Below are positions 1,321-62,127 of a stretch of DNA of 64,000 bases, one piece after another. Origin of the DNA: a virus. A program made the translations under genes and the position numbers. The notes under the pieces were generated by a model, which saw only the letters and a program-made list of their open reading frames with translations, ran no database searches and was not told where the DNA came from. How positions within the stretch are numbered: the stretch's first letter is position 1; each line of letters opens with the position of its first letter. Location of the stretch: the IMG/VR virus record IMGVR_UViG_3300035698_007246, positions 1-64,000 of that record; one strand, written 5' to 3'.

Positions 1321-1911
1321 ATGAATAAGAATAAGAGTAGAACAATAGCCGATAGAGCGAATCAGTTCTTTTACGAACACATAGTTCATGAGGACTTTAT
1401 AAGTGCCCCACAACCTAAAACGGATTTTGATCCATTCGCACCAAACTATGGCAACACACAACAATCAGTAAAACTACATGTGGGTGATGAAAAGAAACCA
1501 ATGGAAACTGACGTAACAAAGGATGTTGATAATGATATCCCAGACACAGCGGATAAGGATGATTCATCTGAAAAGGGTAATAGAAGTCTTGTTTTAAAAA
1601 TGTATAAAGAAATGGGTACTCTTGTAAAAGAAGTTAATTCTAAATTACGAGTTATTGAAAATAAATTTGTCAAAATAAATAGTGGACTTGATACCGCTCC
1701 GGGTGAAAAAGTTACAGAACTTGATGGAATATCAACTCAACTATATGGTGACATTGAAAAATTTAATGATATTGTTAAAGATGTTGTGGACGCTTTGAAT
1801 TCCGTTGACCTTGGTGGTAAGACTGAAGAACTTCCTACAGAAGTTGTTGACAAAGAAGGTGACCACGAGGAAGAGCAAGAAGAGGACACAGTAGAAGTTG
1901 GAGAAGAATAA
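1321..1911 (+). CDS. hypothetical acidic protein
   Basis: ORF preceded by TAGGAGA RBS. D/E-rich C-terminus. Stop overlaps next start (ATGA junction at 1911). Confidence 0.5.
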   Translation: MNKNKSRTIADRANQFFYEHIVHEDFISAPQPKTDFDPFAPNYGNTQQSVKLHVGDEKKPMETDVTKDVDNDIPDTADKDDSSEKGNRSLVLKMYKEMGTLVKEVNSKLRVIENKFVKINSGLDTAPGEKVTELDGISTQLYGDIEKFNDIVKDVVDALNSVDLGGKTEELPTEVVDKEGDHEEEQEEDTVEVGEE

Positions 1912-4105: not shown

Positions 4106-4147
4106 TGATACTGGATTCTGAATTCATATTAAAAATAATGAAAGATA

Positions 4148-4192
4148 GAGACATCATTTAATGTGATGTCTCTTCTTTTATTGGTATCAAAT
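4148..4192 (+). terminator. rho-independent terminator
   Basis: Inverted repeat AGAGACATCA / TGATGTCTCT followed by TCTTTTATT. Confidence 0.6.
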
Positions 4193-4354
4193 TACCAGAA
4201 CTTCAAAAACTATTTGATGGTGAAATTATTCGTGGGTGGCAAATGATTAAATTGATGAGATTTTTCAAATGCAAGTCTACAATCATATTTAAAATGGAAC
4301 CATCTCCAATAATCCACACCACACCAACCTCAAGAAAATATTTATAAAAAACTG

Positions 4355-4383
4355 TTGACATTGCTTTCCCCATGAACTATATT
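4355..4383 (+). promoter_or_regulatory. sigma70-like promoter (TTGACA-N17-TATATT)
   Basis: TTGACA at 4355-4360, 17-nt spacer, TATATT at 4378-4383. One member of the promoter family repeated through this window. Confidence 0.55.
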
Positions 4384-4409
4384 GTTCTTTTAAAATGATG
4401 GAGAAAATT

Positions 4410-7963: not shown

Positions 7964-8086
7964 GAAAAAGATTGAAAAGGAAAAAGATGTTAAGTATGAC
8001 ATCAATGGTAAAGAATGTAAAACTCCTAAAAATATTATTTGGGGTAGACGACATAAAAAGTTTGTTAAAAAATAAATTGAGGAGAA

Positions 8087-8689
8087 TTGATGATTACTGT
8101 GTTAATACTGTTGGTTATATTGTTTATTATAATTGGAACTGTTGTTTCTAATTGGAAATATATTGAAGAAAAATATGAATCACACAAAAAGAATTTTGCA
8201 ATAAAGACACATATAAAGAAAAGTCACCAATCTGTTAGAAATAATATTACCAATAGTTTTATTGGTGGTGATGTGGTTGGTGGAAATTCTATAAGCACCA
8301 CACAATCATTTGGCAAGACTACGGTAACTATAAACGGTAAAAAATATACTGGTATGGGTTCTTCTGTTATCAAGAATGGTAACGTTTACATTGGTGGAGA
8401 ACTAATGAATGATGATGATGATGTTGATTTATCAAATCATACCATTTCTGTTGAAGGTGATGTTGCAAGTTTAAGTACTGATTTGTCTGTTGTCGTTAAA
8501 GGTAGAGTTACTGGAGGAATTATTGCAGGTGGTTCTATCACATGTGGTGATGTTGAGGGTGATGTTAATGCACGTGGCGGTTCTGTGAATTGTGATAATG
8601 TCCGTGGGAATGTTGAAGCTCATGGCTCTGTGAATTGTGATAATGTTGGTGGAAATATTGACGCAATGGGGAGTGTGAATCATGGATAA
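8087..8689 (+). CDS. membrane-anchored bactofilin-like (beta-helical G-V/N repeat) protein
   Basis: N-terminal TM helix, then tandem short repeats (GDVEGDVNARGGSVNCDNVRGNVEAHGSVNCDNVGGNID) resembling bactofilin/DUF583-type beta-helix repeats. Confidence 0.4.
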   Translation: MMITVLILLVILFIIIGTVVSNWKYIEEKYESHKKNFAIKTHIKKSHQSVRNNITNSFIGGDVVGGNSISTTQSFGKTTVTINGKKYTGMGSSVIKNGNVYIGGELMNDDDDVDLSNHTISVEGDVASLSTDLSVVVKGRVTGGIIAGGSITCGDVEGDVNARGGSVNCDNVRGNVEAHGSVNCDNVGGNIDAMGSVNHG

Positions 8690-8847
8690 GAGATGTCATA
8701 AATGTACACATAAAAGTGTGTGTTATATACAAATAGAATTTAAAAAGTTTACTATGAAAGTAAGTGATTATTCGATAGCTCGTGGTAATATGAGACGAGC
8801 ATTTGCTGAATTTGCAAAAAATTGTGATAATTATAAGGAGAAAACTG

Positions 8848-9093
8848 ATGAATAATTTTAAGTATTGTTCAAAGTGTGAAGATGAGACTCTTCATGATGG
8901 AGAACAATGTCGTAGATGTATTAATGAACATAAAGTATTTGTGAATATACCAATGGTGGTTCTTGATACTATGGTGCATACATATAAAATGTCAGTGGAT
9001 GAAGCTATTGATGGCATTGTCAAAACTGTTCGTGCGGAAATCAAAAAGAATTATGAACTGTGGTTAGCTGGTAAAGCTAAAGATGATGTGTAA
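8848..9093 (+). CDS. small zinc-ribbon protein
   Basis: CSKCEDE...CRRC four-cysteine ribbon. ATG after AAGGAGAAAA RBS. Confidence 0.45.
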   Translation: MNNFKYCSKCEDETLHDGEQCRRCINEHKVFVNIPMVVLDTMVHTYKMSVDEAIDGIVKTVRAEIKKNYELWLAGKAKDDV

Positions 9094-9096
9094 TGC

Positions 9097-9130
9097 TGAA
9101 GTAAATTGCTTCAGACAATTTTGAAGTAAA
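9097..9130 (+). repeat. intergenic hairpin repeat copy 1 (TGCTTCAG..CAATTTGAAG family)
   Basis: GCTGAAGtaaattGCTTCAGACAATTTTGAAG immediately after a stop codon. Shares its core with three further copies downstream. Confidence 0.5.
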
Positions 9131-9239
9131 TGTTAATAGCAAGAAAGTAAAATAAAGGTTGCCTGGAATAAAGTAGACTTCAGAGCAACCTAAAAATAAC
9201 ACTTAATTTGCAAACTTCAGTTTTGTAGAAAGGATTGTT

Positions 9240-9419
9240 ATGAAAGAAATTTTTAAAAACATATTACAAACAATAGCATGGATGTTGATATTTGATTATT
9301 TCATTTATTTCCAGGCAAAAAGAAAATGTATGAAAAAAGTTGAGAATGTGTTTGATTGGCTTGGTGGTATATTAATGTTACTGTTTATAATATGTGGATT
9401 AATTTGGATTTGGATGTAA
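9240..9419 (+). CDS. small membrane protein (59 aa)
   Basis: Below the ORF-track cutoff. Two hydrophobic segments. Followed by hairpin repeat copy 2. Confidence 0.3.
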   Translation: MKEIFKNILQTIAWMLIFDYFIYFQAKRKCMKKVENVFDWLGGILMLLFIICGLIWIWM

Positions 9420-9423
9420 GATA

Positions 9424-9460
9424 ATGCTGAATTAATTTTCTTCAGAAAAATTGAATGAAA
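9424..9460 (+). repeat. intergenic hairpin repeat copy 2
   Basis: GCTGAATTAATTTTCTTCAGAAAAATTGAATG. Same CTGAA/TTCAG stem and downstream AATTTGAA core. Confidence 0.45.
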
Positions 9461-9468
9461 GGTTATAA

Positions 9469-9620
9469 TGGACCAAGGAACTGTAATAATTAAAAATATT
9501 GAATTACCAGAGAATACAGAAATTTGTATTGATGATATTCATTTTACAGAGGAAACTCTGGCAGAAATTTTGGGACTACAAAGAGATGAAGTTAAAATTG
9601 AATATGATGAAATTGTATAA
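9469..9620 (+). CDS. small hypothetical protein (50 aa)
   Basis: Micro-ORF between repeat copies 2 and 3. RBS AAGGAA upstream. Confidence 0.3.
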
Positions 9621-9656
9621 CCCATGGTTAAACTGCTTCAGTCAGTTTGGAGCGTT
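9621..9656 (+). repeat. intergenic hairpin repeat copy 3
   Basis: CCCATGGTTAAACTGCTTCAGTCAGTTTGGAGCG. Near-identical to copy 4 (CCCATGGTTAAAATGCTTCAGCCAATTTGAAGCA). Confidence 0.55.
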
Positions 9657-9689
9657 TGTTATAAATTTGAAATTAAAGGAAGAGATAAA

Positions 9690-9848
9690 ATGACTTTTGA
9701 AAAATGGTTTAATGAATTGGGCAGCAAAAAGCCGCTAAATAATAGTGAAGATATTAAAGAGATGGCAAAATCAGCTTTTGCAGCTGGGATGATAACAGCA
9801 AAAATACAAGAGATTAATTATCTTTTAGAAAACAAGGGTGATGTATAA
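9690..9848 (+). CDS. small hypothetical protein (52 aa)
   Basis: ATG after AAGGAAGAG RBS. Stop TAA followed directly by repeat copy 4. Confidence 0.35.
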   Translation: MTFEKWFNELGSKKPLNNSEDIKEMAKSAFAAGMITAKIQEINYLLENKGDV

Positions 9849-9883
9849 CCCATGGTTAAAATGCTTCAGCCAATTTGAAGCAA
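9848..9883 (+). repeat. intergenic hairpin repeat copy 4
   Basis: CCCATGGTTAAAATGCTTCAGCCAATTTGAAGCAATGG. Stem TGCTTCA/TGAAGCA. Confidence 0.55.
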
Positions 9884-9918
9884 TGGTTATAATTTAAATT
9901 TAAAAGAAAGTAGGAGAC

Positions 9919-10221
9919 ATGTTTAATTTTTTTGAAATGGGCAATAATTACGAAGAAAGAAAAGTTGCAAATGACAAAGTAAATGGTGCTGTAATAGATA
10001 CTGTCAGTGTTACAGATAGCGATCAGCCTTACGAGACAGGGGTATCACATAAGAAGTATGATAACGGTAGTTGGGTTATTGTTGAAATGCACAATGACCT
10101 AGAAAGTGCTAAAATTGGGCATAAACAATGGTTAGAGATTTTTTCAAAAAAAGAGTTACCAAAAGAACTGCTTGATGTCGGAACCAGTGAAATTGCTAAA
10201 CTTATGAACGTTTTTTGTTAA
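9919..10221 (+). CDS. hypothetical protein
   Basis: ORF after GTAGGAGA RBS. Confidence 0.45.
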   Translation: MFNFFEMGNNYEERKVANDKVNGAVIDTVSVTDSDQPYETGVSHKKYDNGSWVIVEMHNDLESAKIGHKQWLEIFSKKELPKELLDVGTSEIAKLMNVFC

Positions 10222-10278
10222 TTCCTGTATAAGTACAGGTTATGAATATAACAAGTAATTATGTGGAAGGAAATATAA

Positions 10279-11223
10279 ATGAGTTATACAGATGAGTTTG
10301 TAAAGAAAAATAAATTTAAACCCGATGAGTTATTCATCCGGGATAATTTGATTATGGAGTGTGTCATGGGTTCTCAAGCCTATGGTGTTGCTAATAAAGA
10401 TTCTGATATTGACATCATTGGAATCACAATGAATCCACATAAACAATTATTCCCACAGAAATATGGGTATGTTCGTGGGTTTCATGAACCAAAGATGTTT
10501 ACTAATTTAGAAATTAAAGGACCACAGAAACGTATTATTCTTGAGAATGGTATTGATTGTGAAGGTGAATGGCATTCTCTTGTGGATTTTTTTAACCTTG
10601 GGGGGTTGAAAGCCTCTCCGAATGTATTGGAAATTCTTTTTGTTCGAAGACCTTTGGTGACACATGGGTCAAATGTTGCATGGATTCTTAGGGATAATAG
10701 GCGATTGTTTCTTTCAATGAAATGTTTTGATTCATTGAAGAATTATGCACATGCCCAACTTATGCGTATTAAACGTGGGGTTGCTAGATGGGGAAAAGAA
10801 CATACATGTGAAAATTCTAAACGAAAAGAATATTTTGAAAATTTTGGATATGATGTAAAACAGGCTTATCATCCATTGAGATTGCTTGATAATCTTCATC
10901 AGATTCTTACCACTGATGACATTGACCTTATGAAAAACAATAAGGAATGTCAGCGTATGCGTAAGGGTGAACTTTACACATTCACAGAATTCGAACAGTA
11001 TGTTAATGAGAAAATTAACAGTTTGGAAAAAATTGCTGATATGAATAATAGTTTGTCAATCAAGCCACAGAGACAGGCTTTACAACAATTGCTTATTGAT
11101 TGTATCGAAGAGCATTATGGTTCTGAAGAGAATTTTCAGGACAATCAAACTGAATATGTTTCTGTTAAAGAATTGAAAGAACATCTTGATAGAATTGAAA
11201 CTAAAATTGATAAGTTGGGATAG
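10279..11223 (+). CDS. Pol-beta-superfamily nucleotidyltransferase domain protein
   Basis: GSQAYGVANKDSDIDIIG fits the GS-x9-DxD minimal nucleotidyltransferase signature. Long C-terminal extension of unknown function. Confidence 0.45.
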   Translation: MSYTDEFVKKNKFKPDELFIRDNLIMECVMGSQAYGVANKDSDIDIIGITMNPHKQLFPQKYGYVRGFHEPKMFTNLEIKGPQKRIILENGIDCEGEWHSLVDFFNLGGLKASPNVLEILFVRRPLVTHGSNVAWILRDNRRLFLSMKCFDSLKNYAHAQLMRIKRGVARWGKEHTCENSKRKEYFENFGYDVKQAYHPLRLLDNLHQILTTDDIDLMKNNKECQRMRKGELYTFTEFEQYVNEKINSLEKIADMNNSLSIKPQRQALQQLLIDCIEEHYGSEENFQDNQTEYVSVKELKEHLDRIETKIDKLG

Positions 11224-11309
11224 ATATTTATGTTTAACTTTTTATAAATAATAGAGAAGTTTGTAGTAATCGTGAAATTGAGTAGTGTTTGGAAACTTAA
11301 TTTTAGGGG

Positions 11310-11555
11310 GTGCAAATGGATAAACGATTTCAAGAGTTTATTAATGCCGAAATTCAAAAAATTAAAGACGATAAATGGATTGAGGGTGAAAAAATACACC
11401 GTGACCCCGGAGTTGAATATGAAATTGACTGGGTAGATAGATATGCTGAGAATTTTCGCAAAGCATGGAATAAATCAAAGTGTCGGGATTGTATTAAGTG
11501 TGATGAATGTGGTAAGAATACACTGAGTGCATGTGACAATTATGTCGAAAAATAG
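11310..11555 (+). CDS. small Cys-rich protein
   Basis: CRDCIKCDECGKNTLSACDNY cysteine cluster. GGGGG RBS upstream. Confidence 0.4.
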   Translation: MQMDKRFQEFINAEIQKIKDDKWIEGEKIHRDPGVEYEIDWVDRYAENFRKAWNKSKCRDCIKCDECGKNTLSACDNYVEK

Positions 11556-11692
11556 AAAATTGTGGTTTGAAAATATATAAATACTTATATATTTCAATTT
11601 TATAATGAGGAGGACATGGCGTTGCTTCCTTTTTGTGCTACTTCACAAATTACTTCTCATTATCTTTCTTTAACCTAAGTAGGGGTATCAAA

Positions 11693-12613
11693 ATGTCCAA
11701 AAGACGAACTACAAAAGAATTTATTCTCGAAGCGATTATTGTGCATGGTAATAACTATGATTATTCATTAGTCAATTATAAGAATTCTCAATCTAAAGTA
11801 AAAATAATATGTCCTATACATGGTGTTTTTGAACAAAATTCAAATTCACATTTACAGGGTTCTACATGTAAAAAATGTTCAGATTTGATAAAAGGTAAAA
11901 AATGTAGATTGACAACAGAACAGTTTATTGAAAAGGCAAAAAAGATTCATGGTGATAGATATGATTATAGTTTGGTTAAATATGATAATGTTCAGATTAA
12001 GGTGAAGATTATTTGTAAAAAACATGGTGTGTTTGAACAAAAACCAAGAAAGCATCTTTGTGAAAAACAAGGATGTCTTAAATGTAGGATTGATAATACA
12101 AGATGTCCAAATTTTATTGAACAATCAATTAAATTATTTGGTGATAAATTTAATTATGATGATGTTGATTATATTAACACTGATACAAAAGTAAAAATTT
12201 GGTGTAATGAACATAATCAATATTTTTTAAAATCTCCATATAAACATTTAAAAGGCTCAGGTTGCCATAAATGTAGAATGTCTAAAGGGGAACTTAAAAT
12301 TGAAAACTATCTTAAAGAAAATAATATCCAATTCGAAACAGAAAAGAAATTTCTTGATTGTAAAAATATTAAGCCATTACCTTTTGATTTTTATTTACCA
12401 GAAAAAAATGTTTTAATTGAATATGATGGTAATTTACATTTTAAGATAAATGAATATTTTGGTGGTGTTGATGGATTTATTAAAAGAGTTAAAAATGATT
12501 TAATCAAAACTACTTATTGTTTAGATAATGATATTATATTATTAAGAATCCCATATTGGGATTTTAATAAAATTGATGATTTATTATGTGGTATAAATAA
12601 TTTTGTTAAATAA
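11693..12613 (+). CDS. homing-endonuclease-like protein: 3x ~47-aa His/Cys repeat + C-terminal Vsr/DUF559-like PD-(D/E)xK nuclease domain
   Basis: Three tandem repeats (HGxxYDYSLVxYxNxxxKVKIICxxHGVFEQ...C.KC). C-terminal PLPFDFYLP...LIEYDG...H...ILLRIPYWDF resembles Vsr/DUF559-type restriction-endonuclease-fold domains. ATG at 11693 after GGGGTATCAAA. Confidence 0.45.
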   Translation: MSKRRTTKEFILEAIIVHGNNYDYSLVNYKNSQSKVKIICPIHGVFEQNSNSHLQGSTCKKCSDLIKGKKCRLTTEQFIEKAKKIHGDRYDYSLVKYDNVQIKVKIICKKHGVFEQKPRKHLCEKQGCLKCRIDNTRCPNFIEQSIKLFGDKFNYDDVDYINTDTKVKIWCNEHNQYFLKSPYKHLKGSGCHKCRMSKGELKIENYLKENNIQFETEKKFLDCKNIKPLPFDFYLPEKNVLIEYDGNLHFKINEYFGGVDGFIKRVKNDLIKTTYCLDNDIILLRIPYWDFNKIDDLLCGINNFVK

Positions 12614-14603: not shown

Positions 14604-14859
14604 AGACCTCAACATTTTTAATATATTTATTAAAGATGGAATTCAATTATTTGTTAAACATGATTTGAGGTTGTTTAAAAATGTTAAATCATTAGAACCA
14701 CTATATATGATGGTTGGTATGGTAGAAAAATTTAAACAACAAATATTGGATAGGGTCGAATATATTGAAACCGGTGAAGAAATGGGTGAAGACCTTGATT
14801 TTGATGAGGATATCACTGGATTGTTTGGTGATGGAAACGATAATTGGAATTTAGATTAA
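14590..14859 (+). CDS. hypothetical acidic protein
   Basis: Overlapping start. D/E-rich C-terminus. Confidence 0.4.
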   Translation: MGENKDLNIFNIFIKDGIQLFVKHDLRLFKNVKSLEPLYMMVGMVEKFKQQILDRVEYIETGEEMGEDLDFDEDITGLFGDGNDNWNLD

Positions 14860-14865
14860 AAACTA

Positions 14866-14894
14866 TTGACAAAACCTTTCCCATGTATTATATT
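14866..14894 (+). promoter_or_regulatory. sigma70-like promoter (TTGACA-N17-TATATT)
   Basis: AACTATTGACAAAACCTTTCCCATGTATTATATT. Conserved family member. Confidence 0.55.
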
Positions 14895-14937
14895 ATTTGC
14901 GTATTAATTAAGAGAATGGTTTTTTAAAGGGATGTGA

Positions 14938-15162
14938 ATGCAAGAAGAGCAATTAAGAAAAATAGATATTATCCCCGGGCATATTAATTGGTGTGTTATA
15001 TCTGACGCTATTAAAAAACCAGAAATGCAATTTGAAAATAAAACTGGTGAGACAGCACGTATTGCTGCTATTGTAAGAAGACCAATAGTTGCTAATTATT
15101 TAATAGTTGTGACATTTATTGATGAAAACTGGTCTACAGTTGATGTATTTGAAAAAAAATAA
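14938..15162 (+). CDS. hypothetical protein
   Basis: 74-aa ORF downstream of promoter. Confidence 0.4.
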   Translation: MQEEQLRKIDIIPGHINWCVISDAIKKPEMQFENKTGETARIAAIVRRPIVANYLIVVTFIDENWSTVDVFEKK

Positions 15163-15169
15163 AAAAAGT

Positions 15170-15198
15170 CTTGACAACGAATGTGTCAGGAATTATAT
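15170..15198 (+). promoter_or_regulatory. sigma70-like promoter (TTGACA-N17-TATATT)
   Basis: GTCTTGACAACGAATGTGTCAGGAATTATATT. Confidence 0.5.
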
Positions 15199-15247
15199 TA
15201 AATGGGTCGAAATTAAGGATGTTTAAAAATTTTCAAAGGAGGTGTGC

Positions 15248-16838: not shown

Positions 16839-16875
16839 AGAAAAAAGACATAGCTTAGAGCTATGTCTTTTTTGT
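16839..16875 (+). terminator. rho-independent terminator
   Basis: AAGACATAGCT/AGCTATGTCTT palindrome followed by TTTTTTG. Confidence 0.65.
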
Positions 16876-18008: not shown

Positions 18009-18046
18009 TTTATAATATATTATTTATACAAATTTTGAATTAGGTA

Positions 18047-18075
18047 TTGACTTTTTATAAACAATTAATTATATT
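18047..18075 (+). promoter_or_regulatory. sigma70-like promoter (TTGACT-N17-TATATT)
   Basis: GTATTGACTTTTTATAAACAATTAATTATATT. Confidence 0.5.
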
Positions 18076-18106
18076 TTAAGTTTAATTATTTTGAAAGGTA
18101 ATTTGA

Positions 18107-21322: not shown

Positions 21323-21715
21323 ATGAGTTTATTGACTATGTTAAAAATAGGTCTTGATATACATGGTGTTATAGACATCAAACCTAAGATATATTCAAAA
21401 TTATCACGAAGATTGATAGAATTGGGACATCAGGTTCATGTGATTACAGGGCCTCATGTTACAATTGAATTGGTTAAAGAGTTATTTGGATATGGGATTT
21501 CCTATACCCATGTATTTTCTATCTCAGATTACCATAAAATGTGTGATACACCAATGAGATATGATGAAAAAGGCAATCCTTGGATTGATAAAACACTTTG
21601 GAACAAAACCAAAGCCGAATATTGCCATCGGGAAAAAATTGACCTACACATTGATGATAGTGCATACTATGGTCAATACTTCAAATCTACAATTTATTTA
21701 GAAATTAAAAAATAA
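21323..21715 (+). CDS. hypothetical protein (possible HAD-like phosphatase, weak)
   Basis: GLDIHGVIDIKP...IDDSAYY loosely resembles HAD motif I/IV. Not convincing. Confidence 0.3.
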   Translation: MSLLTMLKIGLDIHGVIDIKPKIYSKLSRRLIELGHQVHVITGPHVTIELVKELFGYGISYTHVFSISDYHKMCDTPMRYDEKGNPWIDKTLWNKTKAEYCHREKIDLHIDDSAYYGQYFKSTIYLEIKK

Positions 21716-21718
21716 CTC

Positions 21719-21747
21719 TTGACATCGTTTTCCCCATTAATTATATT
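21719..21747 (+). promoter_or_regulatory. sigma70-like promoter (TTGACA-N17-TATATT)
   Basis: CTCTTGACATCGTTTTCCCCATTAATTATATT. Confidence 0.55.
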
Positions 21748-21790
21748 ATTATAAAATTGAAAGGGTGAAATTTAATTCTGGAGGTTATGT

Positions 21791-24617: not shown

Positions 24618-24621
24618 ACAG

Positions 24622-24662
24622 ATGATTTTAGCAGAGGTGTAATCACAATCCCTCTGCTTGTT
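24622..24662 (+). terminator. rho-independent terminator
   Basis: GCAGAGG...CCTCTGC stem followed by TTGTT. Confidence 0.5.
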
Positions 24663-24698
24663 AATAAAAGTTATAAACAATAATTGAAGGAGAATATA

Positions 24699-25439
24699 AT
24701 GGAAGATAATAATTTCGATATGTCAATGTTCACAACACCAAATAATTTCAAATACTCAGCTATTGAGACTGATAGTCTGAAAGCTGATGGTTATACAATC
24801 GTTAATATCCTTGTTGACACCACAGGAAGTGTGTGGGGAATGGAAAAAGATATTGAAGGATGTATTAAAAAAATAGTTGACTCTTGTAGAAAACATCCAA
24901 GAGCTGAACAATTACTTATCAGGGTTGCATACTTTGATGGTGATAATGGTATTCGTGAAGCTCATGGTTTTACATTAATTTCATCTACACCAGTTGATTA
25001 TAAGATTATTATTGGTGGGATGACACCTTTAATTGATGCTACACTTGATTGTGTAGAAACAATTGAAGGACATTCAAAAACACTTGAAGCTCAAGAGTTC
25101 TCTTCAAATGGTGTATACTTTGTAATTACAGATGGTGGGGAAAATGATTCCAGAATAAAAGACCCTACAAAAATCTTAGACACATTGAAAAGAATCCGCA
25201 AGGAAGAAATTTGTGCAACTATCAAAGGATTTTTGATTGGGCTTAATGATTCTGGTGGTACTGATGTTGAATTACAAGATTTCAAAGAAAAAGCTGGATT
25301 TGAAGAGTACATTTCAATTAATAATGTGACTCCAGGTGCATTAGCAAAGCTCGCACAATGGGTAAGTCAGTCAATCAGTTCGACTTCACAAGCTCTTAAT
25401 TCTGGAGGACCAAGTCAATCAATCGATTTTAATTTGTAA
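24699..25439 (+). CDS. vWA-like domain protein (TerY-like, tentative)
   Basis: VDTTGSV possible MIDAS DxSxS-like motif. Alpha/beta pattern. Sits immediately upstream of the PP2C-like and kinase-like genes. Confidence 0.35.
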   Translation: MEDNNFDMSMFTTPNNFKYSAIETDSLKADGYTIVNILVDTTGSVWGMEKDIEGCIKKIVDSCRKHPRAEQLLIRVAYFDGDNGIREAHGFTLISSTPVDYKIIIGGMTPLIDATLDCVETIEGHSKTLEAQEFSSNGVYFVITDGGENDSRIKDPTKILDTLKRIRKEEICATIKGFLIGLNDSGGTDVELQDFKEKAGFEEYISINNVTPGALAKLAQWVSQSISSTSQALNSGGPSQSIDFNL

Positions 25440-25474: not shown

Positions 25475-26359
25475 ATGATAATTAATACTGATTCAATATA
25501 TATTAAAGGGCATAACCATAAGGTATGTGAAGATTATAGTATTGATGGTTCAGTACCAACACTCAATGATAGTTTAGGTGATGTTCATTATGCAATTGTG
25601 TGTGATGGATGTTCGGGTTCTGATGGGTATGTTGATGTTGGTGCACGACTTATTGCACATGGGTTAATTAAATTTCTCAGAAATATGGGAAATTCTGTTC
25701 ATTATTATTACAGAGAACCCACTGGGTTTTATGAAAATTTACAATTTCACATGCAACGAGTAATATATAATTCAGCAGAGAATTTTGGGTTATCAAAACT
25801 TTCATTCGTTGCTACAATACAGGCAATAATTGTTATTAAAGATAAATTATTTCATTTCCATTATGGTGATGGTTCAATAATACATTATTGTGATGGTGAT
25901 ATACATAGGCCATATTATACAGACTTCCCTTCAGGTGCACCATACTATTTTGTAGATAGTTTTGAAGGTCGTGATATGGAAAGATATTGTAAACGATTTG
26001 AAATGAATAAAGTAATTCAGGATGGTGTGGAATTTGATGTTCATGATTATGTTTACGAATGGTCAAATTTCTGGAATGTGATTGATTTGAATACAATGGC
26101 TGATGGAAACAATGTGTTTGCTGTTACCAGTGATGGTATAGAAACGTGTTATTACAATGATGATAACGATAATGGTAAACAAGTTGCTGTTGATTTTGAT
26201 GATACTCTTAATGCAGCATTCTGCTTTAAAAACTTCCAAGGTGAATTTGTTAAACGTAGATTCAATAAGTTTTTCAAGGTAATGGAAGATTCAAAAATTA
26301 AACATTATGATGACATCTCAGTTGCTGCAATCAGTATAAAAAAGGAAGGTGATTTATGA
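25475..26359 (+). CDS. PP2C-family Ser/Thr phosphatase-like protein
   Basis: AIVCDGCSGSDGYVDVGARL (PPM motif 1/2-like DG.GG). HYGDGSIIHY and VTSDGIE (later metal-binding Asp motifs). Confidence 0.45.
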   Translation: MIINTDSIYIKGHNHKVCEDYSIDGSVPTLNDSLGDVHYAIVCDGCSGSDGYVDVGARLIAHGLIKFLRNMGNSVHYYYREPTGFYENLQFHMQRVIYNSAENFGLSKLSFVATIQAIIVIKDKLFHFHYGDGSIIHYCDGDIHRPYYTDFPSGAPYYFVDSFEGRDMERYCKRFEMNKVIQDGVEFDVHDYVYEWSNFWNVIDLNTMADGNNVFAVTSDGIETCYYNDDNDNGKQVAVDFDDTLNAAFCFKNFQGEFVKRRFNKFFKVMEDSKIKHYDDISVAAISIKKEGDL

Positions 26360-26385
26360 TTTTAATAATATTGAATTAACTATTG

Positions 26386-26414
26386 ACATTTATTTGGTCA
26401 TAATTTATATTGGT
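26386..26414 (+). promoter_or_regulatory. sigma70-like promoter (TTGACA-N17-TATATT)
   Basis: ACTATTGACATTTATTTGGTCATAATTTATATT. Confidence 0.5.
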
Positions 26415-30012: not shown

Positions 30013-30828
30013 ATGAAAATTAATTTTTTAGGTGCTGGTTCTGCATTTACTATGAAGGGATTCCAAACGAATTTCCTCATACAAGAAAACGGAAAGAATT
30101 TATTGATTGACGCTGGTGGAGATATACGATTCTCCTTGGCTAAACAGGGATTATCATATAAAGATATTGATGCTCTGTATTTAAGTCATGAACACGGTGA
30201 CCATTGTGGTGGGGTAGAAACTCTTGCGTCCTGTACATACTTTGACCCAACTGTCAAGGATACTATTCAACTGTTTGGAAATACCAAACTGTTGAGAAAT
30301 ATGTGGAAGAGTACACTATCTGGTGGTTTGAAATCAATTCAAGGTAAGGTAATGGGGTTGGATGATTACTTTGATGTTAATATGATTCCACCTAACAAAC
30401 AGTTTATTTGGGAAGATATAAAATTTGAAATTGTACAATCCGTTCATGTTATGAATGGTCGTGAGATTGTACCATCATATGGGTTAATGATGACTACACC
30501 GGAAAAGGTGAAGGTATATTTCACAGGTGATACCCAATTCAATCCTAATCAGATTATAGATTTCTATGAGGAAGCTGATTTTATTATTCAGGATTGTGAA
30601 ACATATCCTTTTAAGTCTGGTGTTCATGCTCATGTTGAAGAGTTAAAGACATTACCAAAACACATAAAAGAAAAGATGTTGCTTGTTCATATCAATGATA
30701 ATGTCCTTGATGATAATGGTGTTGTAAGTGCTGATTTTATGAACAAGGTCAGTGACTTTTATAGCGTTGCTTGTACAGGATTTGAAGTTGAAATGGCTAT
30801 TATAAAAAAAATAAAAGATAAGTCTTGA
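30013..30828 (+). CDS. metallo-beta-lactamase-fold hydrolase (possible phosphodiesterase)
   Basis: SHEHGDHCGG (HxHxDH). Later H and D residues in MBL order. Confidence 0.5.
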   Translation: MKINFLGAGSAFTMKGFQTNFLIQENGKNLLIDAGGDIRFSLAKQGLSYKDIDALYLSHEHGDHCGGVETLASCTYFDPTVKDTIQLFGNTKLLRNMWKSTLSGGLKSIQGKVMGLDDYFDVNMIPPNKQFIWEDIKFEIVQSVHVMNGREIVPSYGLMMTTPEKVKVYFTGDTQFNPNQIIDFYEEADFIIQDCETYPFKSGVHAHVEELKTLPKHIKEKMLLVHINDNVLDDNGVVSADFMNKVSDFYSVACTGFEVEMAIIKKIKDKS

Positions 30829-30853
30829 CATCACATTTCCCATTAGCTATATT
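30825..30853 (+). promoter_or_regulatory. sigma70-like promoter (TTGACA-N17-TATATT)
   Basis: GTCTTGACATCACATTTCCCATTAGCTATATT. The -35 box overlaps the upstream stop codon. Confidence 0.55.
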
Positions 30854-30918
30854 GGGTTCGTAATAAAAAAGTTACAATTAAGTGACAAATTTTTAAAATT
30901 TTTTGATGGAGGTCGTTT

Positions 30919-35209: not shown

Positions 35210-35942
35210 TAGTTTAGGTGATAGAATGAAGGGATATGAACACATATCCAGAATATTATTAACTCGTAGAATGCCACTCATCATCCGTGTGGATGGAAAA
35301 GCGTTCCACTCATTGACAAAGAAAATGGATAAACCATATGATATCACGTTTAGTCACTGCATGATGAGGACTGCACGTTTTCTTCTTGAGAACATTATGG
35401 GTGCAAAGCTCGCTTATGTTCAATCAGATGAGATTTCTGTATTGTTGACAGACTACGATTCATTGTCAACAGAGCCTTGGTTTCAAAAGAATATACAGAA
35501 AATCGTTAGTGTGTCTGCAAGTATGGCGACCATGAAATTTAATGAGTTGTATCGTACACATGTTCATTCATCAAAGAAAGTCAAAGATTATGGATTGTTT
35601 GATTCCAGAGTATTTGTTATTCCGAAGGAAGAGGTGTGTAATTATTTTATTTTTCGACAGCAAGACGCTGTTCGTAATTCCATTCAGGGATTAGGGCAAG
35701 CTCATTTCTCTCACAAAGAACTTCAAGGAAAGTCTTGTAATGCGATTCAGGATATGCTGATGGTTGATAAGAAAATCAATTGGAATGATATAAGCCCATA
35801 TTTTAAACGTGGTGGGTGTTTCTATCGCAACTTAAGCATTGATACTGATGAAAATACAAACAATGTTGTTACTGATGTTGCACCTCCGACATTCACACAA
35901 GACCGTGATTATATTGAGAAGTATTTGTTTCTCGAAAAATAA
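35199..35942 (+). CDS. Thg1-like protein (tRNA-His guanylyltransferase family, 3'-5' nucleotidyltransferase)
   Basis: N-terminal GYEHISRILLTRRMPLIIRVDGKAFHSLTKKMDKPYD ... AYVQSDEISVLL matches the Thg1/TLP palm-domain landmarks (RIDG+FH, carboxylate-bearing SDE). Confidence 0.55.
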   Translation: MKNDSLGDRMKGYEHISRILLTRRMPLIIRVDGKAFHSLTKKMDKPYDITFSHCMMRTARFLLENIMGAKLAYVQSDEISVLLTDYDSLSTEPWFQKNIQKIVSVSASMATMKFNELYRTHVHSSKKVKDYGLFDSRVFVIPKEEVCNYFIFRQQDAVRNSIQGLGQAHFSHKELQGKSCNAIQDMLMVDKKINWNDISPYFKRGGCFYRNLSIDTDENTNNVVTDVAPPTFTQDRDYIEKYLFLEK

Positions 35943-35945
35943 CAC

Positions 35946-35974
35946 TTGACAAGACTTGTACCATTAATTATATT
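35946..35974 (+). promoter_or_regulatory. sigma70-like promoter (TTGACA-N17-TATATT)
   Basis: CACTTGACAAGACTTGTACCATTAATTATATT. Confidence 0.55.
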
Positions 35975-36005
35975 GGTAGGGTAAATTAAATTGAAAGGAA
36001 TTATT

Positions 36006-39537: not shown

Positions 39538-39832
39538 TGGATGTTAAACAAGTAATTGTTAGGTGACTTGTGATAATATTGATGTTATGTTAGAAAAATC
39601 AGTGTATGGTATTCTAATTAAGTTAATATTATTTTTTAAACAGAATTCATTTTTTATTTTATCATTATGTTGATGTAATTATTTTCAAAGTTTGGGAGGT
39701 TGTGATGTATAAAGGAATTGCTGGTGCTATTAAAATATTGTTTATTATTTGTTGTATAAGGAAATTAGTTGAGATAGCAATATGGTTATTTAACCATGTA
39801 AGTATAAATTGGAAATAAAGGAGTAACAAACA

Positions 39833-40314: not shown

Positions 40315-40737
40315 ATGGGTTATAAAACATCCTTTAGTGGGTCATTTAAATTAAATAAACAACTTTCAGTAGAACATCTCAAGAAGTACAGAGACTTTTG
40401 TAACACCCGACATGAGAATGAATGGACTGCAAAGGTAGGTTCTATGTATTGTCAGTGGATAGCAAACGAAGATGGTACTGAGATTGAAGCTGAAGGTCAA
40501 ATATTTTATGAGTTTCAGAAATGGATTAAGTTTTTGATTGCTAATTTCTTTACCACTCATGGATATTCTTTAACAGGGATTGTTAAGTGGCAAGGTGAAG
40601 AGATTGGTGATATTGGAATAATTGCAATAAAAGATAATGAAGTAAAGATACTATTCTTTGATTTGTTTGAAAAGTCGGATGATAAAATCTTTGCTTCGAT
40701 GTTTCCCGACCCTGTTACTATTGAAAATAAAAAATAA
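40315..40737 (+). CDS. hypothetical protein
   Basis: Starts 3 nt after previous stop. Confidence 0.45.
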   Translation: MGYKTSFSGSFKLNKQLSVEHLKKYRDFCNTRHENEWTAKVGSMYCQWIANEDGTEIEAEGQIFYEFQKWIKFLIANFFTTHGYSLTGIVKWQGEEIGDIGIIAIKDNEVKILFFDLFEKSDDKIFASMFPDPVTIENKK

Positions 40738-40749
40738 ACATTGACATTG

Positions 40750-40788
40750 AAATCCCCCTGAATTAATTTTAGGGGGATTTCTTTTTAT
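40750..40788 (+). terminator. rho-independent terminator
   Basis: AAATCCCCCT...AGGGGGATTT followed by CTTTTT. Confidence 0.7.
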
Positions 40789-40815
40789 GGTGGTCAAATA
40801 AAAATAAAATAAGTC

Positions 40816-40844
40816 TTGACATTGATTTGACCAAATATTATATT
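40816..40844 (+). promoter_or_regulatory. sigma70-like promoter (TTGACA-N17-TATATT)
   Basis: GTCTTGACATTGATTTGACCAAATATTATATT. Confidence 0.55.
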
Positions 40845-40883
40845 AAGTTTGAAATTTTAAAGTACTTGAAAGTTGGTGGAATA

Positions 40884-46820: not shown

Positions 46821-46869
46821 ATAATTATCTATATGTGACACATTATCATTTCTTGAATTATGAATTAAT

Positions 46870-46990
46870 TTAATGATTAGATTTAATTAAATTTTCTTCT
46901 GCGGTTAAAATTTGTAAATTAGAATAATGAAAACAATGTTGTTGCTCTTCAGGCTTTGATAAATTAAAAGAAGTACATGGTTTAACGTGG
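46870..46990 (-). pseudogene. C-terminal fragment of HNH homing endonuclease
   Basis: Encodes only IDHVKPCTSFNLSKPEEQQHCFHYSNLQILTAEENLIKSNH. About 80% nt identity to the 3' end of the HNH pseudogene at 59966-60544. Confidence 0.45.
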
Positions 46991-47240
46991 TCAATATAAT
47001 ACAAAAGGAGAAGTTGATAAATGGAAACGGAAACAGAAAAATTAAAAGAAAATGATTGCAAGTTAACCGACGCTAAAGGAGTAGTTGTGAAAACATTTAG
47101 ATTGCAGAAAATATTGGGAATATTTGGAAATGCTTTAATGATTTATTTGTTGCTTGGGTTTGTGGAACCAAATCGAATGTTTCAAGTTGCATTAATGTTG
47201 GGATGTTTTGGATATGTTAATGCAACGATTTGGAGAAATT

Positions 47241-52991: not shown

Positions 52992-53235
52992 ATTCGTTTA
53001 AAATTGATTCAATGTTTTTGAATTTATGATATGGAATTCTGATAAGCTGGATATTGTTTTGTTTACAATATTCAGTTTTGATTTTATCATTATGTTGTGT
53101 TTCTCCACCAAATTGGATAATTGATTTATAATGTTGCACACCGTCATATTCAATGAGTGTACCGTGTTGTAGTAAATAGAAATCAAATGGGAGAGTGGAT
53201 TTATTTTTTACAACCTCTAAATTAACTATTGACAT
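52981..53235 (-). pseudogene. truncated PD-(D/E)xK (Vsr/DUF559-like) homing-endonuclease remnant
   Basis: LPFDFYL...LIEYDGVQH...LIRIPY is homologous to the C-terminal domain of the 11693-12613 product. Lone minus-strand ORF. Its 5' end runs into the + strand promoter. Confidence 0.4.
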
Positions 53236-53257
53236 CACCTATACCATTAATTATATT
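53229..53257 (+). promoter_or_regulatory. sigma70-like promoter (TTGACA-N17-TATATT)
   Basis: ACTATTGACATCACCTATACCATTAATTATATT. Confidence 0.55.
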
Positions 53258-53280
53258 CTTTTGGATAGGAGGAATATATT

Positions 53281-53793
53281 ATGAAATATTGTGACTGTGG
53301 TGCAGAGTTACCAACAAATAGACATCGTGTTTGTGATGATTGTAAGAAAAAAAAGAGACGAGAATATGTGGTTGATTATCGTAAAAAGAATATTGATAAA
53401 ATTCGAGAACGAACCAAAGAATATAGTGTTGTGTATTATAAGAAAAATAAAGATAAAATATCAGAATGTGCTAAAAAATATTATGAGAAAAATAAAGATA
53501 AATTTAAAGAATATAGTGATGATTATTATGAGAAAAATAAAGATAAAATATTAGAACGTGATAAAAAATATTATGAGAAAAATAAAGATAAAAAATTAGA
53601 ACGTGTTAAAAAATATTATAAAGACAATAAAGATAAAAAAATAGATTATGATAAAGAATATTATAATAACAATAAAGATAAAATAATAGAACATCATAAA
53701 GAATATCGTAGATTAAAATCAGTCCCATCAAAAGAATATTGGGATTTGAAGGATGAAATAGATTTAACAAAGGAGATGATTAAAAATGGCTAA
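53281..53793 (+). CDS. zinc-ribbon protein with tandem 15-aa KEYYxxNKDKIxERxK repeats (copy 1)
   Basis: N-terminal CDCG...CDDC ribbon, then about 8 tandem 45-nt repeats. C-terminal RRLKSVPSKEYWDL. Paralog of 54005-54595. Confidence 0.5.
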   Translation: MKYCDCGAELPTNRHRVCDDCKKKKRREYVVDYRKKNIDKIRERTKEYSVVYYKKNKDKISECAKKYYEKNKDKFKEYSDDYYEKNKDKILERDKKYYEKNKDKKLERVKKYYKDNKDKKIDYDKEYYNNNKDKIIEHHKEYRRLKSVPSKEYWDLKDEIDLTKEMIKNG

Positions 53794-53795
53794 GA

Positions 53796-53969: not shown

Positions 53970-54004
53970 AATTTAAGATAGAGATTGATGTCGGGGAATA
54001 TATT

Positions 54005-62119: not shown

Positions 62120-62127
62120 AATAACTA

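What the first reader, a model, noticed from the sequence alone, without database searches (positions are those of the whole stretch)
9094..9890. Cluster of micro-ORFs each terminated by a member of a conserved hairpin repeat family
Four consecutive small genes (about 50-80 aa, two of them below the ORF-caller cutoff) each end just before an element with a CTGAAG/CTTCAG stem and a conserved downstream CAATTTGAAG core. Copies 3 and 4 share 30 of 34 nt including CCCATGGTTAAA. These could be RNase processing or terminator sites, translational operator sites, or target sites of a mobile micro-element that shuffles small-gene cassettes, analogous to promoter-stem-loop cassettes in other large phages.
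Basis: seen in the sequence. Interest (0 to 1): 0.5.

Follow-up and report, generated by a model that had tools for sequence, protein, structure and literature searches.

The report
Repeated promoter-like spacers between phage mini-genes
Four look-alike spacers of 50-70 bases sit between tiny accessory genes in a block this uncultured large phage has inserted but its relatives lack; they most resemble the promoter-plus-hairpin cassettes already known from T4-like phages, so this is a modest new example, not a new kind of element.

Summary
The repeat family is real. Four copies (9082-9142, 9412-9474, 9609-9669, 9836-9896) plus a decayed fifth (9202-9244) fill the spacers between five small co-oriented genes. 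A profile of the copies finds nothing else in the 64-kb window or in about 45 kb of related phages.

The whole block, 9094-10278, is a lineage-specific insertion. In three related phage lineages the Zn-ribbon gene abuts the nucleotidyltransferase gene directly.

Public data hold one further copy. It lies in an unrelated phage contig (L037), directly upstream of the only known homologue of the 52-aa gene. So the element travels with the downstream gene.

The hairpins are weak, with z-scores of -1.4 to -1.9 (one copy +1.1), and only copy 3 is followed by a T-rich tail. The phage's ordinary terminators score z -4 to -7. The feature kept in register is TTCAGn, 17 nt, then (G)GTTATAAT, followed by a ribosome-binding site and ATG.

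Best reading (confidence about 0.5): composite spacer cassettes made of a short stem-loop and a sigma-70-type extended -10 promoter. They may also serve as portable homology for swapping orphan genes, like PeSLs of T4-like phages. No transcription or recombination was measured.

Terminator and integron-attC readings are not supported.

The parts
8848..9093 (+). Zn-ribbon gene (81 aa), the conserved left flank of the insertion. Its last codons, GATGATGTGTAA, resemble the 5' box of the repeat (GATGTRTAA).
   Evidence: Homologues in L001, L009 and L013 directly abut or overlap the nucleotidyltransferase gene.
9082..9142 (+). Repeat copy 1. CTGAAG (9096-9101) pairs with CTTCAG (9109-9114). An alternative partner is TGAAG (9122-9126). 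The -10-like box is degenerate: GTTAATAG (9132-9139).
   Evidence: MFE -10.6 kcal/mol, z -1.8; E 2.6e-12
9156..9191 (+). Strong hairpin, GGTTGCCTGGAA...TTCAGAGCAACC. Its inner stem is again CTGGA/TTCAG. No T-tract follows on the + strand. Read on the - strand it is followed by TTTATTTTACTTT.
   Evidence: MFE -14.9 kcal/mol, z -4.7; 0 of 200 shuffles fold as well
9202..9244 (+). Decayed fifth copy: CTTAAT-N7-CTTCAG (9215-9220), 16 nt, then GTTATGAA (9237-9244). The box contains the start codon of orf59.
   Evidence: Read by eye. It has the same CTTCAG-to-GTTAT spacing as copy 2. nhmmer does not detect it.
9240..9419 (+). orf59, a small hydrophobic protein. No homologue in the relatives or elsewhere in the window.
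9412..9474 (+). Repeat copy 2. CTGAAT (9427-9432) pairs with CTTCAG (9440-9445). TTCAGA, 17 nt, TATAAT (9441-9469). The -10-like box overlaps the orf50 start codon (9468).
   Evidence: 10 of 12 consensus match; z +1.1, no significant hairpin; E 4.5e-12
9468..9620 (+). orf50, an acidic orphan gene.
   Evidence: In 1.84 billion representative proteins only the query itself matches over its full length. The two other hits cover short stretches of long proteins.
9609..9682 (+). Repeat copy 3. Stop codon in TATAAC, small TAACC-CAT-GGTTA hairpin, then GCTTCAG (9635-9641) paired with TTTGGAGC. TTCAGT, 17 nt, TATAAA, preceded by TG (GTTATAAA at 9658-9665). Ribosome-binding site follows; ATG at 9690.
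   Evidence: D2; z -1.4; E 2.2e-14
9690..9848 (+). orf52, a real gene under purifying selection. Its only known homologue is in L037 (88% aa identity).
   Evidence: 10 synonymous against 6 non-synonymous codon differences
9836..9910 (+). Repeat copy 4. TATAACC (stop codon region) can pair with GGTTATA. Inner stem TGCTTCA/TGAAGCA. TTCAGC, 17 nt, TATAAT (GTTATAAT at 9886-9893). Ribosome-binding site AGGAG follows; ATG at 9919.
   Evidence: D2, I4; MFE -12.3 kcal/mol, z -1.9; E 4.6e-16
9919..10221 (+). orf100, a member of a small phage gene family scattered among unrelated phage contigs. None of those contigs carries the repeat.
10222..10278 (+). Last spacer of the insertion. Same layout with a different stem: CCTGTA-TAAG-TACAGG (10224-10239), GTTATGAA (10239-10246), ribosome-binding site, ATG at 10279.
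   Evidence: (z -0.8)
10279..11223 (+). RlaP-type nucleotidyltransferase gene, the conserved right flank of the insertion.

Best explanation
**What it is.** 9094-10278 is a lineage-specific 'hyperplastic' insertion of five small accessory genes. It sits inside a roughly 10-kb early-type operon of an uncultured AT-rich large phage. Each spacer in the insertion is one composite regulatory cassette.

**Layout of one cassette.**
- The stop codon of the upstream gene, inside a conserved GATGTRTAAY box.
- One or two short AT-rich stem-loops built on the invariant CTTCAG.
- A sigma-70-type promoter with a weak -35 (TTCAGn), a 17-nt spacer and a strong -10 preceded by G at -14 ((G)GTTATAAT).
- 16-32 nt further on, the ribosome-binding site and ATG of the next gene.

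**How it most likely works (inferred).**
- Each cassette gives its downstream mini-gene some transcription of its own.
- The stem-loop, on read-through RNA, attenuates or stabilises the upstream message.
- The 45-70 bp of shared sequence give homologous recombination a foothold. Stop-to-stop modules (cassette plus gene) can then be gained, lost or exchanged without breaking reading frames.

**Shown.** The repeat family, its position, its fixed register, the indel, and the association of the element with the downstream gene in a second phage.

**Inferred.** Promoter activity, any RNA role of the hairpins, and recombination at the repeats.
For: 1. **Fixed register.** TTCAGn, exactly 17 nt, then TATAAT, TATAAA or TATAAT in copies 2-4. 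L037 has the same spacing with TATAAC.
2. **G at -14.** It is invariant in the five aligned family copies and also present in the GTTATRA boxes of three further spacers read. TGT precedes the box in copy 3 and in two further L037 spacers.
3. **Position.** In copies 3 and 4, the L037 copy, the 10239 box and two other L037 spacers, the box lies 16-32 nt before the start codon with the ribosome-binding site in between.
4. **Constraint.** Between window copy 3 and L037 the core GTTAAAyTGCTTCAGnCAnTTTGrA is 21/25 identical and GTTATAA 7/7. That is as conserved as the coding sequence (88% aa identity; 10 synonymous and 6 non-synonymous codon changes). The stretch between the box and the ATG is unalignable. 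This is the pattern expected of a DNA signal upstream of a transcription start.
5. **Travels with the downstream gene.** The upstream genes differ (orf50 here, an 84-aa protein in L037). The copy downstream of orf52 is absent in L037.
6. **Insertion.** The block is absent from L001, L009-L012 and L013, where the two flanking genes touch. In L005-L008 a different small gene sits upstream of the nucleotidyltransferase gene.
7. **Similarity confined to spacers.** The genes between the repeats are unrelated to one another.
8. **Mosaic repeat.** The left half of the L037 repeat is copy-1-like (26 of 27 nt, one gap), while its gene is the one that follows copy 3 here. A crossover inside the repeat would give this.
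9. **Published precedent.** PeSLs include subclasses whose stem-loop overlaps the -35 or lies between -35 and -10, as here (PMC2839356; PMC4122927).
Against: - **No expression data** were available.
- **Weak -35.** It matches only 3-4 of 6 positions. Generic sigma-70-like sites are no more frequent than in shuffled sequence in this AT-rich DNA: 82 against 69.8 +/- 9.7, and 23 against 19.4 +/- 3.9. Consensus resemblance alone therefore proves nothing.
- **Two copies cannot drive their own gene.** In copy 2 and the decayed copy at 9237 the -10-like box overlaps the start codon of the next gene.
- **Copy 1** has a poor -10 (TTAATA).
- **A different main promoter family exists.** The phage has 13 copies of cTTGACA, 17 nt, TATATT in the window. 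The CTTCAG family is not that genome-wide system.
- **Too few copies.** Four or five copies in 64 kb, all in one place, compare poorly with about 50 PeSLs per genome.
- **Unexplained spacer conservation.** CAATTTGAAG is not explained by sigma-70 recognition.
- **Few independent observations.** The recombination evidence rests on a single second genome, and copies 3 and 4 are probably recent duplicates.
Confidence: 0.5

Rival explanations
1. RNA-level element only. The conserved CTTCAG hairpins, with the possible closing stem ATAAC...GTTAT, act on the polycistronic transcript. They would be processing sites, 3'-end protectors or weak attenuators between cistrons. The TATAAT-like box would then be conserved as part of that structure, not as a promoter.
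For: - CTTCAG can pair in every copy, with an upstream arm in copies 1, 2 and L037 and a downstream arm in copies 1, 3 and 4.
- Copy 3 keeps its stem through a G-U pair, which works in RNA but not in duplex DNA.
- The L037 copy folds into two hairpins at z -4.9, and another L037 spacer at z -4.9 with ATAACA/TGTTAT as its closing stem.
- The hairpin at 9156-9191 reuses the CTGGA/TTCAG stem and is strong, z -4.7.
- In copy 2 and at 9237 the box cannot be a promoter for the next gene.
Against: - The window copies fold no better than shuffles by usual standards: z -1.4 to -1.9, and copy 2 at +1.1.
- No compensatory changes are seen. Which hairpin forms is not conserved between window copy 3 and L037, whereas the linear sequence is.
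- TTATAA is its own reverse complement. A stop-codon context of TATAA therefore pairs with a -10 box automatically.
- Only copy 3 is followed by a T-rich tail, unlike this phage's real terminators.
Confidence: 0.2
2. Operator sites. The inverted repeats CTGAAG-N7/8-CTTCAG, or CTTCA-N7-TGAAG, would be bound by a phage or host DNA-binding dimer that controls a promoter overlapping them.
For: - The stem sequence itself is conserved, not merely the ability to pair.
- A conserved spacer block, CAATTTGAAG, lies between -35 and -10, where repressors commonly bind.
Against: - The two palindromes have opposite half-site orientation and differ in which copies carry them. No single operator geometry is shared by all copies.
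- Copy 3 breaks the DNA palindrome (TGGAGC).
- No candidate regulator was identified.
- This reading is an add-on to the promoter model rather than an alternative to it.
Confidence: 0.1
3. Functionless residue of local duplication. One spacer would have been copied by unequal crossing-over or slippage while the genes between were replaced.
For: - All window copies lie within 0.8 kb and nowhere else in the window.
- Copies 3 and 4 are 80-86% identical.
Against: - The core is as conserved as coding sequence between two phages that share nothing else over L037's 3.4 kb, while the adjacent 5' leader has diverged beyond alignment.
- Similarity stops sharply at the gene boundaries, although non-coding DNA should decay faster than coding DNA.
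Confidence: 0.12
4. Site-specific recombination sites of an integron-like or other hairpin-recognising system. Each spacer would be an imperfect inverted repeat with AAC...GTT ends (GTATAAC ... GTTATAA), resembling attC R''/R' core sites between small co-oriented, promoter-less cassettes.
For: - ATAAC...GTTAT closing pairs recur around different inner hairpins: window copies 3 and 4, and L037 spacers 1, 2 and 4.
- Stop codons lie in the 5' box and start codons shortly after the 3' box, as in integron cassettes (my own knowledge of attC architecture).
Against: - In integrons the attC downstream of an ORF moves with it. Here the upstream element moved with orf52 and the downstream one did not.
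- The cores fit RYYYAAC and GTTRRRY only 5-6 of 7.
- The length, about 48 nt, is below the known attC range.
- No tyrosine recombinase or transposase domain was found in 68 window proteins, nor in L037.
- Palindromic TTATAA explains the pairing trivially.
Confidence: 0.05

Closest known systems
PeSLs (promoter-early stem-loops) of T4-like myoviruses RB49/phi1, PST and nt-1 (Arbiol et al. 2010, PMC2839356; Comeau et al. 2014, PMC4122927)
   Same: [quoted passage not shown]
- They combine a sigma-70-like -35, 17 nt and a -10 with a stem-loop that may overlap the -35 or lie in the spacer.
- They sit in front of orphan mini-genes in hyperplastic regions.
- They are associated with indels between related phages.
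- Chimeric repeats suggest crossovers within the motif.
   Different: - There are only 4-5 copies, all in one 1.2-kb block, against about 50 per genome.
- The -35 is weak and the -10 is of the extended type, not near-consensus.
- The stems are AT-rich, weak and sequence-conserved, not G/C-tract terminators.
- The phage has a separate 13-copy consensus promoter family that is the better counterpart of P-early.
- No T4 core genes were seen in the window.
- Promoter, terminator and mini-circle activities are untested here.
Morons of lambdoid and other phages: a promoter, an accessory gene and a terminator inserted between conserved genes (my own knowledge)
   Same: - Small accessory genes, each with its own promoter-like signal, are inserted between two genes that are adjacent in relatives.
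- One such gene (orf100) is widely scattered among unrelated phages.
   Different: - Morons are usually single, each with an unrelated promoter and a proper terminator.
- Here five genes in a row share one repeated spacer family and lack convincing terminators.
Integron attC sites and cassette arrays
   Same: - The array holds small co-oriented ORFs separated by imperfect inverted repeats with AAC...GTT ends.
- Stop codons lie inside the 5' box.
   Different: - The site does not travel with the upstream ORF.
- The fit to the core consensus is poor and the element is too short.
- No integrase was found.
T4 middle promoters: MotA box (a/t)3TGCTTyA plus a -10 (my own knowledge; the Mot-box TGCTT is mentioned in PMC4122927)
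   Same: Four of the five aligned copies read (A/T)3-4 n TGCTTCA, which matches the MotA-box consensus letter for letter.
   Different: - The box ends 19 nt before TATAAT. To my knowledge the T4 distance is about 11-13 nt.
- No TAnnnT lies at the T4 distance.
- No MotA or AsiA homologue was looked for or seen.
Rho-independent terminators
   Same: A stem-loop sits just after a stop codon. Copy 3 passes a lenient terminator scan.
   Different: The real terminators in this window have 10-14-bp stems, z -4 to -7, and T-tracts. Of the CTTCAG hairpins only copy 3 has a T-rich tail, and all have weak stems.

Membership tests
PeSL (promoter-early stem-loop cassette) | [quoted passage not shown] | tested here: met
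   The copy 3/4 repeat spans 9614-9682 and 9842-9910, from the last two codons of the upstream gene to the ribosome-binding site (D2).
PeSL (promoter-early stem-loop cassette) | Contains a sigma-70-like promoter (-35, about 17 nt, -10) | tested here: inconclusive
   The 17-nt register is fixed, the -10 matches 5-6 of 6 and G at -14 is present, but the -35 matches only 3-4 of 6. Consensus sites are not enriched over shuffles. Two copies overlap the next start codon. No activity data exist.
PeSL (promoter-early stem-loop cassette) | Contains a stable stem-loop that acts as a terminator or attenuator | tested here: inconclusive
   Stems are present, but z is only -1.4 to -1.9 and copy 2 scores +1.1. 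Only copy 3 has a T-rich tail. The L037 copy is stable, z -4.9.
PeSL (promoter-early stem-loop cassette) | Many copies per genome, concentrated in hyperplastic regions | tested here: not met
   The only copies lie in 9082-9896. There are none elsewhere in the 64 kb or in four related loci. The rest of the genome was not available.
PeSL (promoter-early stem-loop cassette) | Flanks orphan genes that differ between related phages (indels or replacements) | tested here: met
   The block 9094-10278 is absent from L001, L009-L012 and L013 and replaced in L005-L008. orf50 is an orphan and orf52 has one homologue.
PeSL (promoter-early stem-loop cassette) | Recombination between copies (chimeric motifs, mini-circles) | tested here: inconclusive
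   The L037 repeat is a mosaic of copy-1-like and copy-3-like parts, and module homology runs from stop codon to stop codon. This is one case only. Mini-circles cannot be tested here.
PeSL (promoter-early stem-loop cassette) | Host genome is a T4-like myovirus | not tested
   The window holds accessory genes such as ligases, NAD metabolism genes, Apyc1 and Thg1. No structural or replication core genes were available to classify the phage.
Integron attC site | Inverse core RYYYAAC and core GTTRRRY at the two ends of an imperfect hairpin of 57-141 nt | tested here: not met
   GTATAAC (6 of 7) and GTTATAA (5 of 7) lie about 48 nt apart.
Integron attC site | The site lies 3' of its ORF and moves with it | tested here: not met
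   In L037 the orf52 homologue keeps the upstream element and loses the downstream one.
Integron attC site | An integron integrase (tyrosine recombinase) nearby | tested here: not met
   No recombinase family appears among the Pfam hits of 68 window proteins. One of the 26 families found was not displayed. The rest of the genome is unseen.
Intrinsic (Rho-independent) terminator | G+C-rich stem followed directly by a T-tract | tested here: not met
   Only copy 3 passes a lenient scan. The other copies have no T-rich tail and all have weak stems. Compare the true terminators at 4147-4183, 16846-16873 and 40749-40786.
T4-type middle (MotA-dependent) promoter | MotA box TGCTTyA centred near -30, about 12 nt upstream of TAnnnT | tested here: not met
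   The box sequence is present in four of five aligned copies, but it ends 19 nt before the -10 and no TAnnnT lies at 11-13 nt. The T4 spacing is from my own knowledge.
Rfam RNA families | Match to any curated covariance model | tested here: not met
   There were no matches at the gathering threshold in the window or L037. In 8800-10400 the only hit at E <= 1 was a chance snoRNA match, E 0.85.

The most novel reading that the evidence does not exclude
The spacers would be recognition sites of a dedicated, still unseen phage enzyme, either a recombinase or nuclease acting on folded hairpins or a sequence-specific RNA or DNA binder of the CTGAAG/CTTCAG stem. That would make the block a phage-borne 'mini-integron' that captures orphan genes at ATAAC...GTTAT-bounded hairpins.
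Probability: 0.05. Interest if true: 0.8.

Novelty: new member of a known kind. Interest (0 to 1): 0.3.

Why it matters
If the reading is right, modular shuffling of orphan genes on repeated promoter/stem-loop spacers is not peculiar to T4-like coliphages and vibriophages. It would also operate in an unrelated, uncultured AT-rich large phage.

It also provides a compact, well-bounded test case: five mini-genes, a clean empty site in relatives, and one module shared with another phage. That could be used to study how phages acquire and express orphan accessory genes.

The practical value is modest. These spacers mark gene boundaries that ORF callers may miss, and they flag the block as horizontally acquired.

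Tried and rejected
- **Near-identical DNA in 50,697 GenBank phages:** no match.
- **Exact and degenerate motif scans.** In IMG/VR and in 185,579 genomes there were only single chance hits, mostly inside higher-GC contigs. Only L026 (the same phage) and L037 were genuine.
- **nhmmer profile of the five copies** against the window, four relatives, L037 and six orf100 loci: no further members.
- **Rfam:** nothing.
- **Paralogy among the small genes, or homologues in relatives:** none.
- **Relatives of L037** through its portal protein in IMG/VR: none.
- **Promoter built on the conserved TTGAAG as the -35:** rejected, because no -10 lies at 16-18 nt.
- **T4 MotA-type promoter:** rejected on spacing.
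- **T4 late-type TATAAATA:** only copy 3 fits.
- **Coding potential of the repeat.** The ATG in CCCATGG opens a 74-aa frame in copy 3, but the same frame stops after 8 codons in copy 4, and L037 has no ATG there. Rejected.
- **Restriction-site idea.** From my own knowledge, CTGAAG is the Eco57I/AcuI site. The hexamer is not avoided in the window (31 + 17 occurrences), so I dropped the idea.
- **Variant contig L065.** It may be a real variant or an assembly chimera.
Full report
**Setting**

The window is 31% G+C and has strong positive GC skew. Essentially every gene lies on the + strand. It encodes accessory functions typical of large phages:
- an NAD-ligase-like protein, RNA ligase and an RlaP nucleotidyltransferase;
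- patatin, NADAR, NAD-salvage enzymes, Thg1 and the anti-Pycsar protein Apyc1;
- an HNH homing endonuclease.

No GenBank phage is near-identical over 8000-12000. The same sequence, 100% identical, occurs in ENA and Logan assemblies. JGI contig L026 carries the same three motif copies at the same spacing.

**Observation**

Four consecutive small genes each stop 0-4 nt before a member of a repeat family:
- the Zn-ribbon gene, 8848-9093;
- orf59, 9240-9419;
- orf50, 9468-9620;
- orf52, 9690-9848.

The repeat finder aligns four copies of 43 nt and finds an 80% match of 69 nt between copies 3 and 4. MAFFT shows these invariant blocks: TAA, TAA(A), CTTCAG, A, TT, A, GTTA, A.

The family is far beyond chance and is confined to this spot:
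- The 18-mer core with up to 3 mismatches hits 3 times, all here, against 0.32 expected.
- Six of the 17 CTTCAG in 64 kb fall within 811 nt; P = 4.5e-8.
- An nhmmer profile scores the four copies at E = 1e-12 to 1e-16. Nothing else in the window scores below E = 0.6.
- By eye, a decayed fifth copy lies at 9202-9244.
- The strong hairpin at 9156-9191 reuses a CTGGA/TTCAG stem.

The hairpin part of the description needs correcting:
- CTGAAG/CTTCAG pairs only in copies 1 and 2.
- In copies 3 and 4, CTTCAG pairs with the downstream TTTGRAGC.
- The folds are not significantly better than shuffles: z = -1.8, +1.1, -1.4, -1.9.

**What is kept in register**

In every copy, TTCAGn is followed after exactly 17 nt by a -10-like hexamer. 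These are TATAAT in copies 2 and 4, TATAAA in copy 3 and TTAATA in copy 1. The hexamer is preceded by GT, that is, G at -14.

In copies 3 and 4 the ribosome-binding site and ATG follow 24-25 nt later.

The last spacer of the block (10222-10278) has the same layout with a different stem. It reads CCTGTA-TAAG-TACAGG, then GTTATGAA, then a ribosome-binding site and ATG.

This is the anatomy of a promoter with a weak -35 and an extended -10, with a stem-loop overlapping the -35 and spacer.

Caveats:
- Such consensus matches are not enriched over shuffles in this AT-rich DNA.
- In copy 2 and at 9237 the box overlaps the next start codon.
- Copy 1 has a poor -10.

**Comparison with the phage's own signals**

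The window has a different, 13-copy, about 60-nt promoter family: AATAACTMTTGACAT...CCCATTAATTATATT, an 11/12 consensus match. One copy at 4355-4383 heads the operon that contains this cluster.

Its recognisable terminators have long stems and T-tracts, and fold at z = -3.9 to -6.9. The CTTCAG hairpins are nothing like them. A terminator reading is therefore unsupported.

**Comparative evidence**

I retrieved relatives through nucleotidyltransferase homologues.
- In L001 (65% aa identity), L009-L012 (67%) and L013 (66%) the Zn-ribbon gene overlaps or touches the nucleotidyltransferase gene. So 9094-10278, with its five genes, is an insertion.
- In the closest relative (85%, L005-L008) a different small gene precedes the nucleotidyltransferase gene. 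Four independent assemblies all break at about the same point, 172-182 nt upstream of it.

None of the small genes has a paralogue in the window or a homologue in the relatives.
- orf100 belongs to a family of 26 small proteins found in otherwise unrelated phage contigs (36-51% G+C). None of these contigs carries the repeat.
- orf50 is an orphan.
- orf52 has a single homologue.

**The second copy-bearing phage**

L037 is a 3.4-kb phage contig with a portal gene followed by small genes. It shares with the window only 9627-9857, at 79% nucleotide identity.

That shared segment is the repeat, orf52 and the GATGTATAAC box after its stop codon. Within it:
- the repeat core is 21/25 identical and GTTATAA is 7/7 identical;
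- the leader between the box and the ATG is unalignable;
- the coding sequence shows 10 synonymous against 6 non-synonymous codon differences.

The genes upstream of the repeat differ between the two phages, and L037 lacks the copy downstream of orf52.

Three things follow:
- The element is under constraint.
- It belongs functionally to the downstream gene, as a 5' regulatory signal. It is neither the upstream gene's terminator nor an attC-type 3' site.
- The shared module runs from stop codon to stop codon.

The left half of the L037 repeat is copy-1-like (26 of 27 nt, one gap), although its gene follows copy 3 here. A crossover within the repeat would produce this mosaic.

Other L037 spacers show the same stop / hairpin / TTGTTATRAT / ribosome-binding site / ATG layout with other stems.

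**Interpretation**

The best-supported reading is a locally repeated composite regulatory spacer (stem-loop plus sigma-70-type promoter) in front of each orphan mini-gene of a horizontally acquired block.

This matches the published description of PeSLs in T4-like phages:
- the motif extends from the stop codon to the ATG;
- the stem-loop may overlap the -35 or lie between the boxes;
- the motifs sit before orphan genes in hyperplastic regions;
- recombination between motifs causes indels.

Membership is only partial:
- copy number and genome-wide distribution are not met within 64 kb;
- stem stability and promoter strength are inconclusive;
- the phage type is unknown.

I therefore say it works like a PeSL or moron cassette, without claiming it is one.

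**Rivals**
- An RNA-only structural role (confidence 0.2).
- An operator add-on to the promoter (0.1).
- Functionless duplication residue (0.12).
- An integron-like recombination site (0.05). The last is contradicted by which repeat travels with orf52. No recombinase domain was found in 68 window proteins.

**Verdict**

The 'cassette' interpretation is partly supported, and the terminator interpretation is not. This is a new member of a known kind and of modest interest (0.3). Every functional statement remains an inference from sequence.

Noticed in passing
window 4324-4386, 14835-14897, 15140-15202, 18016-18078, 21688-21750, 26352-26414, 30794-30856, 35915-35977, 40710-40772, 40785-40847, 53198-53260, 60636-60698, 62097-62159: A 13-copy family of about 60 nt, AATAACTMTTGACAT-N-CCCATTAATTATATT. 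It has a near-consensus sigma-70 promoter with an A-rich upstream part and a conserved spacer. This is the phage's main promoter family and the closer counterpart of T4-type P-early/PeSL motifs. Some copies carry a stem overlapping the -35, for example 15169-15191.
   Followed up: partly
window 53344-54625: 13 in-register copies spaced 45 nt apart (60-79% identity), in two blocks inside the ORFs 53281-53793 and 54005-54595. These look like tandem 15-residue coding repeats.
   Followed up: no
window 46860-46997 and 59971-60108; 39574-39672 and 52999-53097: Two further pairs of dispersed repeats, 138 nt at 75% and 99 nt at 72%, in long apparently non-coding stretches. The first pair contains GCTCTTCAGG...ACATGGTTT. 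They could be minus-strand paralogues or regulatory regions.
   Followed up: no
window 11633-12613: An HNH/DUF723 homing-endonuclease gene lies between the 79-aa gene and the patatin gene. It is absent at that place in L005, L009 and L013, so it is a second lineage-specific insertion 1.4 kb downstream of the cluster.
   Followed up: partly
L005-L008, first 182 nt: Four independent assemblies of the 85% relative (ENA, JGI twice, Logan) all end at about the same point, 172-182 nt upstream of the nucleotidyltransferase gene. Three end at exactly the same base (CAGTTTATAAACC...). The end follows a small gene that, by eye, looks helix-turn-helix-like. This suggests a genome end, a repeat or population heterogeneity exactly at the site where the window phage carries its insertion.
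   Followed up: no
It is either a population variant of the cassette block or an assembly chimera.
   Followed up: partly
window 9156-9191: A strong hairpin (-14.9 kcal/mol, z -4.7) has no T-tract on the + strand. On the - strand it is followed by TTTATTTTACTTT, so it reads as an intrinsic terminator for the strand that carries no genes.
   Followed up: no
L037 about 1450-1612 (minus strand): A spacer of about 160 nt after the portal gene has long-range complementary segments (GGACTGTCGA...TCGACAGTC and GCCCTG...CAGGGC). It may be a structured RNA. There was no Rfam match at the gathering threshold.
   Followed up: partly
window 8531-8668: Three tandem 45-nt coding repeats lie within the 200-aa ORF 8087-8689 (phrog_3163), giving a repetitive G-x-V-x-C-D-N-V protein motif.
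   Followed up: no
window 24618-24700: The only other spacer in the window with the layout stop / terminator-like hairpin (GCAGAGG...CCTCTGC) / GTTATAAA / ribosome-binding site / ATG.
   Followed up: no
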